64,000 nt of DNA, from contig NC_047016.1 of assembly GCF_902652985.1 (NCBI RefSeq), forward strand, positions 35,526,001-35,590,000, in the 5' to 3' direction. The DNA comes from Pecten maximus (Eukaryota). A program made the position numbers. Shown here piece by piece: positions 15,001-57,000 of the stretch (position 1 is the stretch's first letter; every line of letters begins with the position of its first letter).

Positions 15001-18000
15001 TTCCTTCGTTTAGATTGGGTAAAAGGTTGTCAAAATTAAACTTACTGAAAAATATGTGTTTTTTCCCAAGTAGTAACAGTTCTAACCTTTACATTATTAT
15101 TAAGGCAGTATTTTTCCCCTCACGATTAACCAAAGTTCTTCGAGTATTAAGTCCTGAAAATTCTTTATTCCACCCGAAGTACCACCAATTACCGCTAAGA
15201 AATACGGTATTTGTATACGATACGCCTTTCTCTTATATATTTCGGGGCGTTGATTTAATTACATTTAGGCACAAACACTCATATGATCATCGTTCGGACA
15301 TAGATTTCATCAACAGAAATTGCGCATGTTTCTGAGGTCCGAAGTTTGCATGTTGGTATCCTCTTGTTGTTTTGTATACAACGTTGCATTTCATCTCAGT
15401 TTCACTTTTCTGCACCAGATCTTGGATTCTGACAACAATATTTAACTATCGAACGATTTGTAATTATACATGAACATTTCGTTTTTTTCTCAGTATCTGT
15501 AATTGTTCTTATCGAATCTGATTTTGTCAATTCATATCAAGCCAATATTTACAAACAAATAAACTCTCAAAAGGAACTCAATAAAGCATTATATCATATA
15601 CACTTGCTGTTTATGCAATATCAATTAACAAAGGTATAACAAAGGTATCCTTGCATTGTTTTTGATGGTAGCAAACTAAGACTCACCGAAAGTAAAAACT
15701 CCACCATTAACACCTTTTCATTTAATTTTTCTTACTGTTTTTCGGCAATGTCAGCATACTTATTGTTACCATATTGACAAGTATTACATTTAACCAGGAA
15801 CTACCTTGATATTTAACCTGAGCCCTACAAAAATGAAACAAATCGTTGACTTCACTCTTAACTAATTTTAAAGTATACATGTATAATTATATGCTTTACC
15901 TCCTAGAACTCCAAAGCTGGCATATGTGAACGACAGAGTAGGTGATACAGAAGTGATGACCAGGCTGATGCACAGGAGAACACCTCCAGTGATTACCACA
16001 GATCGAGCGGAATATCTGTTACACAGTATGCTACACACAGGGCCTACAACACAAAGTATCATATTGACAAAGTATACTACACACAGGGCCTACAACACAA
16101 AGTATCATGTTGAGAACATATACTACACACAGGGCCTACAACACAAAGTATCATATTGACAAAGTATGCTACACACAGGGTCTACAACAAAAGTATCATG
16201 TTGAGAACATATACTACACACAGGGCCTACAACACAAAGTATCATATTGACAAATATGCTACACACAGAACATACAACACAAAGTATCATATTGACAAAG
16301 TATACTACACACAGGGCCTACAACACAAAGTATCATATTGACAAAGTATGCTACACACAGGGTCTACAACAAAAGTATCATGTTGAGAACATATACTACA
16401 CACAGGGCCTACAACACAAAGTATCATATTGACAAAGTATGCTACACACAGGGTCTACAACAAAAGTATCATGTTGAGAACATATACTACACACAGGGCC
16501 TACAACACAAAGTATCATATTGACAAATATGCTACACACAGAACATACAACACAAAGTATCATATTGACAAAGTATACTACACACAGGGCCTACAACACA
16601 AAGTATCATATTGACAAAGTATGCTACACACAGGGTCTACAACACAAAGTATCATATTGACAAAGTATGCTACACACAGGGCCTACAACACAAAGTATCA
16701 TATTGACAAATATGCTACACACAGAACCTACAACACAAAGTATCATATATTGACAAAGTATGCTACACACAGGGTCTACAACACAAAGTATCATATTGAC
16801 AAAGTATGCTACACACAGGGCCTACAACACAAAGTATCATATTGAGAACATATGCTACATACAGGGACTACAACACATAATATATTGACAAATTATGCTA
16901 ACAAAAAGGACCTACAACTTAAAATATCATGTTGACAAAGTATGCTACACAATTGGCATGAGATTCATAGTGACATACAGACAAAGTACGCTTCATACAG
17001 CGCCTACAACACAAAATATCACATTGACAGATTATGCTACACACAGAGCTTACAACACAAAATATCATATTGACAAAGTGTGCTAATCACAGGGCCTGCA
17101 GCACAAAAAAAAACATATTGACAAAGTAATAAATATGTATGCTACATGGAGGGCCTAGAAATTTAAATATTTCAATGGAGTATGCTTCAGACTTAAGGCT
17201 TAAAACACATGTCATACTGACAAAGTAAGATATACATAGGATCTATAACACAAAATATCATATTGACAAAGTAATGCTTCACAAAAGGCCTACAACTTAA
17301 AATATCACATTCACAAAGTAATATGCCACACACACAGCCTACAACACAAAATATCACATTCACAGTGTATGCTACACATGTAATATCATATTGACAAAGC
17401 TTAGTATGCTACAAACAGGGCCCTACAACATAAAATATCATATTGAAAAAGTATGCTACACATAGGGCCTAAAACATCAAGAATCATATTGAAAATTATA
17501 CAATGGCAAGGTATTGTGTTAATATGAAAACCTATTTTATCTATGCTGATAAAACATTACAAATGATTCCATCAATTACTATGGAAAATTTTGGGATAAG
17601 TATCATTATGTAATTTCAGCATAAGTAGCTTTAATTATCTTTTTACTTTTGCAAAATCAGAGCGTTCTTTATTTCCTAAATAGTATTTGTCTTTACATGA
17701 ATGTGCAAAGTTAAATTAGAAATTTGGGACCCACAAGGAGAGAGGTATATATGTACTTACCTAGAGTCAATCTCAGACCTGCTGGGAGGGAGGTTGCCCA
17801 TGCTGTGGCGGCAGCAGACTTTTCAAATTTATCCTCAAACTTTAAGTAAATGATTCCAGCTGATCTCTCTATTCCACCTATAATCATGATTAAGTGCATG
17901 CCTCAGTGTGTGTAAGTGCATGCCTCAGTGTGTGTAAGTGCATGCCTCAGTGTGTGTAAGTGCATGCCTCAGTGTGTGTAAGTACATGCCTCAGTGTGTG

Positions 18001-54000: not shown

Positions 54001-57000
54001 AAAGATATGTACATGTATTAGCATTAAACTATCTAGTCAATGTGTAATCTAGCATTTGATATGATTTATATTTATGTTATAAAATGATATTTTCTTACAC
54101 TTTCTGATTGGCTACAATAGTTTCATGTGATTCTCGATAAAAAGTCCTATTGACAGCAATGAACAAATTATTTCCGATTAACTTGATGTTTCTAAAAATA
54201 TATTATATAGTATTATATATTACATGTATATAGTTATGTTCCCTTAATCTTGCATTATTTATGAATTTGTGTGCTCAATATATTTTAATGATATAAGTTT
54301 ATTGGATCGGTTCTGTAGCGTGAAATATCATCATATATATACAAAAGGTTATCATGCAAGGCTGCAGTATCTGTAGATGTGCAAGTATACTAATATTCAA
54401 TGACAAAAATAAATTTTTTTTTAAAAAGTAAAAAAATAAAAAAAAAATAAAAAATTGTCATTTGATGTCAAAATTAGTTTTCCCTGATGCATCTTTAAAT
54501 ATCTCCACATAGACAATCACGATAGATGTTTTGTTTGTACTATGATTTGCATTCAATGCAAATATAGGGTAAAGAGAAAAGAAAAACAACGCTACTTCGA
54601 TTATTCAACTTCATTTTTTTGTTACATCCATTATCGTGTAAATGCTATATTTGTGTTTTACAGCTATTACATGTATATGTATTTTATAATCCACATTCAC
54701 TTATAAACAAATAAAAATGTATCAAGCTTCAAAGCGAGTCCGTTTAACAGCAAGCATTGGCCCCAGACGCGGGTAAATGTAGTCATGCTACCTTACAGCG
54801 GAGCCAAGTTCATATTATTACTAGTGGCACCGTCAGCTCCTTTGAAGTTCAAATGATGGGACATTTTAATCTACTGAAGGCAAAAGTTTTCTGTCTGTAA
54901 ATATCATATGTCATTGGGTAGGTTAAATGATATACACCTGTAGTTTAACGCCACTCTGAGTCCCCGAACACCTCTTATCACCTTCATCCTCGGCGCTCAG
55001 AAACGTTAAGCCTGCGCATTGAATTAAGTCTTAGTTACGCCGCTATGATATCTAGATAAAACATATCCTCATGTCATAATGTGAGTGTGGATCAATATGC
55101 CAGTTAAGGATTGATTTTGAAGTTGAATCTTAGCTATAATGTGCAGGTTGACACTTAAAATAAATATGTACATGTATTACATTCGTCGACTTATTTATAC
55201 ACTTCAGTGCTTACAAATAAGATATTAAAAGAAAGCAGAAATGTAACAATACATTTTCAAATTATTATTTCATAATTGCCAAAAATACCATACAGAATTA
55301 AATAGAGTTGTTTTTATCGTAATTGAAAAATAATATTTAGTATATTGAAGAAAATAATGTTTATACTTAGTTATTTGAGCTATTACAGCGCAGGTGTAAT
55401 TTCTGATGCATTCACTATGTCCTCCTAATCTCCACAAGTCTTTAATTACCAAGGAGACTATAGATCATACGTACCCATGAAATGTCCAGACAAGGAAGTG
55501 ACGTAATCGCAATAAAAATATCGGATTGATATTGACGCACGCATACTTGCGTACAAAAATATTTACTGAAAATTGCAGTACATGATCGAAAAGGGATTGA
55601 AGAGGAAATCCCCGATACCCTTCGATCGTTGCCATCTTATATAATTAAGTTATCATATGGCATAAAGATGCTTTTAAAAAGGATTTCAAAGAAATTGTGT
55701 CGCACATCTGTCATAACAGTCATATCAAAAGGTAAATAAAGCATCACTTTGTTCTCAGCAGGCAACTTAAACAAGGAATCCATATGTATTCCTGAAAATG
55801 TTTATGGTACATCACATGACAGATCAACCCTGAAAATGTTGATGGTATATCACATGACAGTACAATCCTGAACATGTTTATGGTATATCACATGACAGTA
55901 CAACCCTGAAAATGTTTTAATATGGTAAATCACATGACAATACAACTGTTGTTTTCGGCCTGTCTTTGCCGTTGTCTGTTTCGGGCCTCCATTTGGTTCT
56001 TCAGTGTTTCTATTGGTTCCAAGTAGTTTTTCCTCAGCCAGGACATCTTAAATGTCATAATGTTGTTAACACTCCGATTTCGGCCAGCGATCATAATACT
56101 TTGACTGACGACAAAGCGGTTTCGCACAGCGGTTATCTTGTAAAACTCGTTACTACTGTCTCCACACATAGCGTCGTCCTGAAAGATGCACTTGTTGATC
56201 AGGATGTCTGGAGATATCAGCAAACAGATCATGAAGAGTTGATTTGTCTCATCCTCTGACAATGAAGCATGATTTTGATACCTTTTCAGCCGATTGATGT
56301 TTGTGCCAGGTTCGTTACCAATATCAAGCACGGTACAGACTGAATTCAGATAATACATGAGACGGGCTTTAGCGTTATTGGGAACATTCGCCGACACTCC
56401 AGTCCTCTCTACCTGCATTTGAAGTCTCCCGAATGCTGCCATCTTTCTCGTTTTACACGATGTATGTAGTAGTCAGTGGATTGGTCACAACAGTTAAGAT
56501 TCTATACGATAAAGAAACCGTAAGAACAAGTAGGGATTATATACAGGAATATCGCGTGCTTCCCAGAAAAAAGTACTAATAAGGAAATCTACTTGTGCAT
56601 TTCTTAGAACGCTACCGGCTGACCAAGAGGCAATATCAAGTTTAAAAAATACATGCCTTATTTGGGAACCAGGAAGATTATTATATTTAGGTGACATGTT
56701 TGTGAATGTGTTTTATATTCTATACATTGTTTCACTGGAAAGTTGCCAGATACCTATGGTTCGAAACAAATATCGCTTCCTATGAATGTGAAAGGAGTTG
56801 GTTGATCCATGAGATATTTTTTATGGGCCCAAATTGGTCTTTTTTTAACTGTCCTGGATTGTTCAAATTGTGATATTCTGGAGAAGTTGGGAGAGACTAT
56901 ACAAACTCAAAAACTTAAAAACAGATTAAGGATATAGATACCAAACGTCATTTATGACTAGATTTGTTTGGTTTTGTTTAACGTCCTATTAACAGCCAGG

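What the first reader, a model, noticed from the sequence alone, without database searches (positions are those of the whole stretch)
16025..55946. Four independent tandem arrays seeded from exon termini (acceptor, donor, two stop codons)
Seen: the arrays at 16025-17490 (46 bp, SLC16 exon-3 acceptor), 27353-28600 (46 bp, RABGGTB exon-3 donor), 32857-33115 (65 bp, RABGGTB stop) and 55791-55946 (38 bp, CaaX-gene stop) share no sequence with each other. Each has a unit straddling a coding/non-coding boundary and extends only into non-coding DNA, and the first three decay with distance from the exon. That is 4 of about 10 minisatellites in the window, although coding boundaries are a small fraction of it. 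Inference: this is either a boundary-linked amplification process (transcription-, splicing- or R-loop-coupled) or genome-wide minisatellite birth filtered by selection so that only outward expansions survive.
Basis: partly seen in the sequence, partly recalled or inferred. Interest (0 to 1): 0.7.

Follow-up and report, generated by a model that had tools for sequence, protein, structure and literature searches.

The report
Exon-end "mirage" minisatellites in scallop
Four unrelated tandem-repeat arrays in this scallop DNA each grew from a copy of the very end of a protein-coding segment, a kind of repeat already described in lancelets and a few human genes, so the finding is real but of a known kind.

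Summary
Tandem Repeats Finder finds all four arrays at the stated coordinates. In each, the exon-side unit holds a coding terminus. These are the acceptor of the third coding exon of an MCT12-like (SLC16) gene, a RABGGTB donor, the RABGGTB stop codon, and the stop codon of a conserved CaaX-ended protein. Orthologues show the coding ends are ancestral, so the arrays derive from the exons. The arrays share no sequence with each other. Arrays 1-3 decay away from the exon; array 4 does not. On a uniform-seed null, 4 of 10 (or 4 of 19) arrays at coding termini exceeds the expected 0.4-1.3 (P 0.0004-0.03, post hoc). GC preference and hairpins do not explain the excess.

The architecture is known: "mirage" minisatellites in amphioxus, and human F7, IFI6, CBS, LMNB2 and PDGF (PMC3087553, PMC1557585). 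The likeliest reading is ordinary local tandem duplication, tolerated only when the exon-side copy keeps the authentic splice or stop signal, then expanded in multi-unit blocks. Two anchors are stop codons, which argues against a splicing-coupled mutational process. Whether the excess holds genome-wide could not be tested. The window matches Pecten maximus, not human.

The parts
15898..16043 (-). Third coding exon of the MCT12-like (SLC16-family) gene, paralogue b. Its 5' end and acceptor anchor array 1.
   Evidence: tblastn of P0140 [Pecten maximus], aa 136-185, 98%. Pfam MFS_1 on the neighbouring exons.
16021..17491 (-). Array 1: 46-bp units, unit 0 (16021-16066) plus 31 further units. Each intact unit carries a putative branch/Py region, the AG and the first 23 nt of the exon. 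It fills 1448 of the 1716 bp of the intron.
   Evidence: There are 9 exact upstream copies of the 14-nt acceptor core. Units 1-17 are 90-100% identical to the consensus, units 18-31 are 58-89%.
27195..27392 (+). RABGGTB coding exon (aa 38-103 of the orthologues). Its 3' end and donor anchor array 2.
   Evidence: Pfam Prenyltrans. tblastn of P0003, P0011 and P0005.
27354..28632 (+). Array 2: 45/46-bp units, unit 0 (39 nt exon + GTATGT) plus about 23 good and 4 degenerate units. There are 18 exact copies of the donor 9-mer downstream of the authentic one. It fills 1240 of the 1581 bp of the intron.
   Evidence: Higher-order period of 229 bp.
32787..32924 (+). Last coding exon of RABGGTB. It ends ...GIRLELL TGA.
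   Evidence: tblastn reaches the last residue of three orthologues. Translation.
32860..33115 (+). Array 3: 65-bp units. Unit 0 is the last 65 nt of the CDS including the TGA. Three further units in the 3' flank are 88, 80 and 72% identical to unit 0.
   Evidence: tblastn also finds the pseudo-copies at 32921-32986 and 32986-33051. The first A[AT]TAAA downstream is at 33290.
55930..56442 (-). Single-exon ORF of 170 aa ending CIVM plus TGA. It belongs to a conserved, unnamed protein family.
   Evidence: 19 homologues, from scallops to Lingula and unionids. Alignment. No Pfam family.
55791..55945 (-). Array 4: 38-bp units. Unit 0 (55905-55945, 41 nt) holds the last 16 nt of CDS plus stop. Three further units lie in the 3' flank, each 81% identical to unit 0 and 87-92% to each other.

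Best explanation
These are four independent 'mirage'-type minisatellites in a scallop genome (Pecten maximus or a very near relative). In each, a short segment of 38-65 bp spanning a coding/non-coding boundary was duplicated in tandem. The duplication was harmless because the exon-side copy kept the authentic signal: the first donor, the last acceptor or the first stop. All other copies therefore fell into the intron or the 3' flank. The arrays then grew by ordinary minisatellite dynamics, meaning slippage or unequal exchange in blocks of several units. The youngest units lie next to the exon and an old, decayed tail lies distally.

The 'outward only' geometry is produced by selection and by how the boundary is defined, not by a directed process.

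Shown: the anatomy, the exon-to-array direction, independence, polarity, and that use of the extra sites would truncate the protein. Inferred: the duplication mechanism, that the pseudo-sites are silent in vivo, and that the local excess is chance or a modest bias.
For: Anatomy and boundaries.

Exon ends are ancestral:
- RABGGTB orthologues are colinear up to both termini.
- The CaaX C-terminus is conserved in 10 of 11 aligned sequences.
- The P. maximus MCT12-like model uses the array-proximal acceptor.

Selection filter: 5 of 5 pseudo-donors tested and 4 of 4 upstream acceptors tested give a premature stop. The unit lengths 46, 46, 65 and 38 are not multiples of 3.

Ordinary array dynamics:
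- Higher-order periods of 182/228, 229 and 130 bp.
- In array 3 the identity matrix is ladder-like: 0.88; 0.80/0.82; 0.71-0.74.
- Units 1 and 2 of array 3 share changes absent from the exon unit, so at least one arose from a neighbouring unit and not as a fresh copy of the exon (read by eye).

No common sequence and no common fold: only array 2's unit folds better than shuffles, z -3.3 and -2.4, while the other 8 of 10 strands give z -1.64 to +0.64.

Two of the four anchors are stop codons, a landmark only for translation and selection.

Same architecture in print: the amphioxus mirages and the human F7 37-bp VNTR and others (passages read).
Against: A uniform-seed null expects only 0.39-1.27 boundary arrays in this window against 4 seen. 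A GC preference of seeds raises the expected share only from 4.4% to at most 6.9%. A pure filter therefore leaves roughly a 3- to 10-fold excess that must be put down to chance or post hoc choice of window.

Arrays 1-3 have a sharp exon-side edge and a decayed distal tail. The two large non-boundary arrays (37450-38715, 42870-43488) are sharp on both sides. That polarity is not predicted by a filter alone.

No RNA data were available, so silence of the pseudo-sites is inferred from one public gene model and from colinearity with orthologues.
Confidence: 0.68

Rival explanations
1. Boundary-linked amplification. Coding termini are true mutational hot spots for minisatellite birth and polar growth, for example through fork stalling, R-loops, exon-marked chromatin or a flanking break-initiation site. 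Selection only trims the result.
For: - In-window excess, P 0.0004-0.033, not explained by GC or hairpins.
- Exon-proximal youth and a distal tail in arrays 1-3, unlike the two large non-boundary arrays.
- Two further small arrays end 13 and 70 nt upstream of acceptors without holding exon sequence.
- Mirages recur in several of the few amphioxus genes studied, and their origin is called unclear.
- Polar growth driven by a flanking initiator is known for human minisatellites (recalled, not from a call).
Against: - Two anchors are stop codons inside last exons, which no DNA- or RNA-processing step marks.
- 52 of 56 coding termini in the window show no echo in the adjacent 1.5 kb.
- 6 of 10 arrays are not at boundaries.
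- No shared motif.
- The test is post hoc, on one window.
Confidence: 0.17
2. Selected function. The arrays are kept because the repeated splice signals or 3' UTR units do something, such as decoy or enhancer sites that tune splicing, U1-binding sites, or regulated unproductive splicing.
For: There are 18 exact donor copies and 9 exact acceptor-core copies. In human IFI6 and CBS some pseudo-donors are used (passage in PMC1557585).
Against: - The distal units decay freely.
- Paralogue a of the MCT gene lacks any array in its 491-bp equivalent intron.
- The units are unrelated between loci.
- Every tested alternative site gives a premature stop.
Confidence: 0.07
3. Assembly artefact. The arrays, or their lengths, were created by mis-assembly of repeats.
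For: Tandem repeats are prone to copy-number errors in assemblies (general knowledge). Raw reads could not be checked.
Against: Units differ by substitutions and indels, form higher-order blocks and have decayed tails. Artefactual expansion does not produce these. The flanking exons are intact and colinear with orthologues.
Confidence: 0.03

Closest known systems
Amphioxus 'mirage' minisatellites (Adh3, globins BflGb6/BflGb9, troponin C, PGBD5). Passages read in PMC3087553 and PMC3902484. The original paper PMC117041 is not held.
   Same: Minisatellite-like tandem duplications whose units span an exon-intron boundary. Both 5' and 3' exon boundaries occur. Many units keep AG/GT signals, regular splicing is kept, and cluster edges are excluded from homogenisation. 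Arrays 1 (acceptor, like BflGb6) and 2 (donor, like BflGb9/Adh3) match this.
   Different: The host here is a mollusc. Copy numbers are larger (about 32 and 24-28 here, against 3-6 for the globins). Arrays 3 and 4 are anchored at stop codons, not at exon-intron boundaries. Length polymorphism and somatic instability could not be tested.
Human intronic VNTRs whose first unit spans the exon-intron junction: F7 IVS7 (37 bp), IFI6/6-16, CBS IVS13, LMNB2, PDGF. Passages read in PMC1557585.
   Same: The authentic donor is followed by identical pseudo-donors, and normally the most upstream one is used. [quoted passage not shown]
   Different: All those cases concern donors. Array 1 repeats an acceptor and arrays 3-4 repeat a stop codon. 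Splice-site choice was not measured here.
Intron creation or expansion by internal tandem duplication (Rogers; Zhuo et al. 2007; Gao and Lynch 2009). Only titles, plus one summarising passage in PMC3087553, were seen. The papers are not held.
   Same: Tandem duplication of segments carrying splice signals changes intron content without changing the protein.
   Different: No new intron is created here. Existing introns are enlarged about three-fold (1716 bp against 491 bp in the paralogue).

Membership tests
Mirage minisatellite (tandem repeat spanning an exon-intron boundary) | Head-to-tail array of short units (reported 10-160 bp) | tested here: met
   Units of 46, 46, 65 and 38 bp, with 32, 23+, 3.4-4 and 4 copies.
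Mirage minisatellite (tandem repeat spanning an exon-intron boundary) | The terminal unit contains the authentic exon-intron junction, so the splice signal is reiterated in the intron | tested here: met
   Met for arrays 1 and 2: 9 extra exact acceptor cores and 18 extra exact donor 9-mers. Junctions are fixed by P0140 and by the RABGGTB orthologues. Not met for arrays 3 and 4, which span a stop codon instead.
Mirage minisatellite (tandem repeat spanning an exon-intron boundary) | Regular splicing is kept and pseudo-sites are mostly silent | tested here: inconclusive
   Only indirect evidence. The public P. maximus protein model uses the authentic acceptor, the orthologues are colinear, and all 9 tested alternative sites give premature stops. 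No RNA data.
Mirage minisatellite (tandem repeat spanning an exon-intron boundary) | Length polymorphism or instability between haplotypes or individuals | not testable with these tools
Transposon-borne satellite (e.g. arrays inside MITE/Helitron-type elements of bivalves; a lead from recall) | Dispersed copies of the unit, or the array flanked by element termini | tested here: not met
   No copy of any of the four units occurs elsewhere in the 64 kb. Each array starts inside its own conserved exon. The rest of the genome could not be searched.

The most novel reading that the evidence does not exclude
In scallops, as suspected for amphioxus, coding termini are genuine hot spots where minisatellites are born and grow from the exon side outwards, at stop codons as well as at splice junctions. 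Because nothing at the DNA or RNA-processing level marks a stop codon, a genome-wide excess that includes stops would point to one of two causes. One is an anchor effect, in which a unit frozen by purifying selection keeps re-seeding its array. The other is coupling to exon-marked chromatin. Either would make array age gradients a usable record of past exon sequence.
Probability: 0.2. Interest if true: 0.65.

Novelty: new member of a known kind. Interest (0 to 1): 0.38.

Why it matters
Repeats that reiterate a splice junction are natural experiments in splice-site choice: here one real donor among 19 identical ones, and one real acceptor among 10 identical cores. They can triple intron length at a stroke. 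The origin of mirages is stated to be unclear in the amphioxus literature.

Four cases in 64 kb of a mollusc, two of them at stop codons, extend the phenomenon beyond chordates. The stop-codon cases give a simple discriminating argument (selection landmark against processing landmark) and a cheap genome-wide test. For annotation, such arrays are a source of false exons and cryptic sites.

Tried and rejected
1. GC-preference explanation of the excess. The straddling share of 45-bp seeds rises only from 4.4% to 6.9% at GC thresholds up to 0.43. Rejected.
2. Hairpin-driven slippage as a common cause. Only array 2's unit beats shuffles; the other 8 of 10 strands do not. Rejected as a general cause.
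3. Hidden further mirages. An echo scan of 56 coding termini found only the same four (z 8.8-33.5); the remaining 52 scored at most 1.9.
4. Source copies elsewhere, or a shared unit. None found.
5. The two large non-boundary arrays as unrecognised mirages. Mapping the EF-hand genes with 8 of 18 unnamed representatives showed two small paralogous genes (34883-36134 and about 40740-43815). Array 42870-43488 lies about 155-170 bp from both flanking exons, and array 37450-38715 lies more than 1.3 kb from any mapped exon.
6. Pfam was run on 150 of the 626 stop-to-stop ORFs of at least 40 aa (the longest ones outside the arrays). Small exons were therefore mapped by tblastn instead.
7. Papers not held: PMC117041, PMC1783408, PMC2791625.
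8. Literature searches for bivalve or scallop cases and for stop-codon-anchored minisatellites found none. One search call was malformed. PMC10078293 held nothing on the question.
Additional files 4-7 of PMC3087553 (mirage alignments and trees) were not seen.
The control analysis was redone from coordinates.
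Full report
What the window is. The window has no N and about 35% GC. It carries animal genes.
- Two tandem MFS/SLC16-type transporter genes lie on the minus strand.
- A prenyltransferase beta-subunit gene lies on the plus strand.
- There are two small EF-hand genes, an intronless B-box ORF, a 170-aa ORF ending CIVM, and Tc1/mariner remnants.

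This comes from Pfam on 150 of the 626 ORFs of at least 40 aa and from tblastn. One exon of the second transporter gene is 100% identical to the NCBI record 'monocarboxylate transporter 12-like [Pecten maximus]' (P0140). Its other exons match at 93-100%. The window is therefore from that scallop or a very near relative. It is not human, and nothing in it was taken for human. Gene models were searched exon by exon (one search is a single-exon ORF).

The observation. I cut each array into units in register with the exon.

- Array 1. Unit 0 (16021-16066) is half exon, half intron. The exon starts on the minus strand at 16043, behind ...TGTTGTAG. The P. maximus model joins ...LRLTLG to PVCSILCNRYS at that point. 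Thirty-one further units fill 1448 of the 1716 bp of the intron. The equivalent intron of the neighbouring paralogue is 491 bp and has no array.
- Array 2. Unit 0 (27354-27398) is the last 39 nt of a RABGGTB exon plus GTATGT. Three orthologues (1 unnamed, 2 named; 3 of the 120 listed) align to ...LSAIQ at 27392 and resume at 28974. The array takes 1240 of 1581 intron bases.
- Array 3. Unit 0 is the last 65 nt of the RABGGTB CDS, ending with the TGA at 32924. The orthologues end at the same residue.
- Array 4. Unit 0 holds the last 16 nt of CDS plus the stop of the CIVM ORF. That ORF belongs to a conserved but unnamed family (19 hits). Its C-terminal Cys-x-x-x is present in 10 of the 11 aligned sequences (10 of the 19 hits plus the window).

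Because the coding ends are conserved across phyla, the exons are the source and the arrays are the copies. The arrays share no sequence with each other or with anything else in the window.

Decay and polarity. Identity to the exon unit falls with distance in arrays 1 and 2 (Spearman -0.71 over 32 units and -0.70 over 27 units). It falls stepwise in array 3 (88, 80, 72, then 58% for the first non-repeat segment). Array 4 shows no gradient: 81% for all three units.

The exon-side edge is sharp and the far edge is a long degenerate tail in arrays 1 and 2. The two large arrays that are not at boundaries (37450-38715, 42870-43488) are sharp on both sides. In array 3 the identity matrix is ladder-like (0.88; 0.80/0.82; 0.71-0.74), as if each new duplication involved the exon-proximal units. 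Units 1 and 2 also share changes that the exon unit lacks (read), so units were copied from each other and not each time from the exon. TRF's higher-order periods (182/228 bp, 229 bp and 130 bp) show growth in multi-unit blocks. The copies in array 3 read PEE where the exon now reads PDE and the orthologues read PED. They thus appear to preserve an older state of the exon.

Is it more than chance? I collapsed each array to one seed and let seeds fall uniformly on non-coding DNA plus boundary-spanning positions. Results:

| Arrays counted | Coding termini assumed | Expected | P (4 or more) |
|---|---|---|---|
| 10 | 54 | 0.39 | 0.0004 |
| 19 | 54 | 0.60 | 0.0025 |
| 19 | 120 | 1.27 | 0.033 |

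The first row counts the 10 arrays with at least 3 copies and period at least 20, against the 54 mapped termini. The second counts all 19 TRF loci. The third more than doubles the number of termini. After the EF-hand genes were re-mapped, 28 exons (56 termini) were used.

The excess is not a matter of base composition. The share of 45-bp seeds that straddle a terminus is 4.4% overall and at most 6.9% if seeds are restricted to GC-rich sequence. It is not due to a common hairpin either. An independent echo scan found the same four termini and no other among the 56.

The test is post hoc, because the window was flagged for this feature.

How it most likely works. A tandem duplication that spans a coding boundary leaves the message unchanged if the exon-side copy keeps the working signal. 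That is what is seen. Array 2 holds 18 further exact copies of the donor 9-mer and array 1 holds 9 further exact copies of the acceptor 14-mer. Each of the 5 pseudo-donors and 4 upstream acceptors I tested would bring a stop codon into frame within 11-34 codons. Duplications wholly inside exons would change the protein. None of the four unit lengths is a multiple of three.

The 'outward only' geometry therefore follows from selection and from how the boundary is defined. The strongest argument against a splicing-, transcription- or R-loop-coupled origin is that two of the four anchors are stop codons inside last exons. Only translation, and hence selection, recognises a stop codon. Two things remain unexplained: the size of the local excess, and why the young units lie on the exon side.

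Comparison with what is known. The architecture is in print.
[quoted passage not shown] It lists IFI6/6-16, CBS, LMNB2 and PDGF as further cases, and reports that only the most upstream donor is normally used.
[quoted passage not shown] Regular splicing is kept, and concerted evolution occurs inside the cluster but not at its edges. [quoted passage not shown]
- PMC3902484 (one passage) adds PGBD5 and troponin C.
- The original mirage paper and two papers on intron origin from tandem arrays are not held. Only their titles were seen.

Arrays 1 and 2 meet the structural definition of mirages. Arrays 3 and 4 work the same way but are anchored at stop codons, which the definition does not cover. 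My searches found no report of such arrays in bivalves and none of stop-codon-anchored minisatellites. That is a statement about those searches of the held library only. Supplementary files (closed) might hold more.

Verdict. Its kind is already known, here in a new phylum and in unusual density, with a stop-codon variant. It is ordinary in mechanism as far as the evidence goes. A residual, testable question is whether coding termini are favoured sites.

Noticed in passing
window 17891-18002: A 22-bp x5 array ends 13 nt upstream of the acceptor of coding exon 2 of the MCT12-like gene (exon 5' end at 17877, minus strand). It sits where the branch point and pyrimidine tract are expected, and it contains no exon sequence.
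   Followed up: partly
window 14195-14296: A 41-bp x2.5 repeat ends 70 nt upstream of the exon-4 acceptor of the same gene.
   Followed up: partly
window 55930-56442 (minus): The 170-aa CaaX-ended ORF belongs to a conserved family with no Pfam model and no name. It is found in scallops (two adjacent copies on one Mizuhopecten contig), Lingula, unionid mussels and unnamed records. The N-terminal MA and the C-terminal CxxX are kept.
   Followed up: partly
window 36955-37165 and 56963-57178: Two copies of a dispersed repeat of about 215 bp, 90% identical, SINE- or MITE-like. Not classified.
   Followed up: no
window 8484-9341, 41278-42093, 58458-59629: Remnants of Tc1/mariner-type transposase genes (HTH_Tnp_Tc3_2, Transposase_1, DDE_3, HTH_48).
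   Followed up: no
window 32925-33054: The 3'-flank copies of the RABGGTB C-terminus read PEE where the exon reads PDE and the orthologues read PED. They seem to preserve an earlier state of the exon.
   Followed up: partly
protein P0001 (named Pangasianodon gigas record, not the window): This 404-aa RABGGTB model contains the segment matching window exon 29945-30172 twice (aa 106-179 and 232-305, both 80% identical). This is an internal duplication or an assembly/annotation artefact.
   Followed up: partly
window 27399-27490: The array-2 unit, and hence the exon end itself, contains an imperfect palindrome around the donor. As single-stranded DNA it folds better than shuffles (z -3.3 and -2.4). 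It is the only one of the four arrays to do so.
   Followed up: partly
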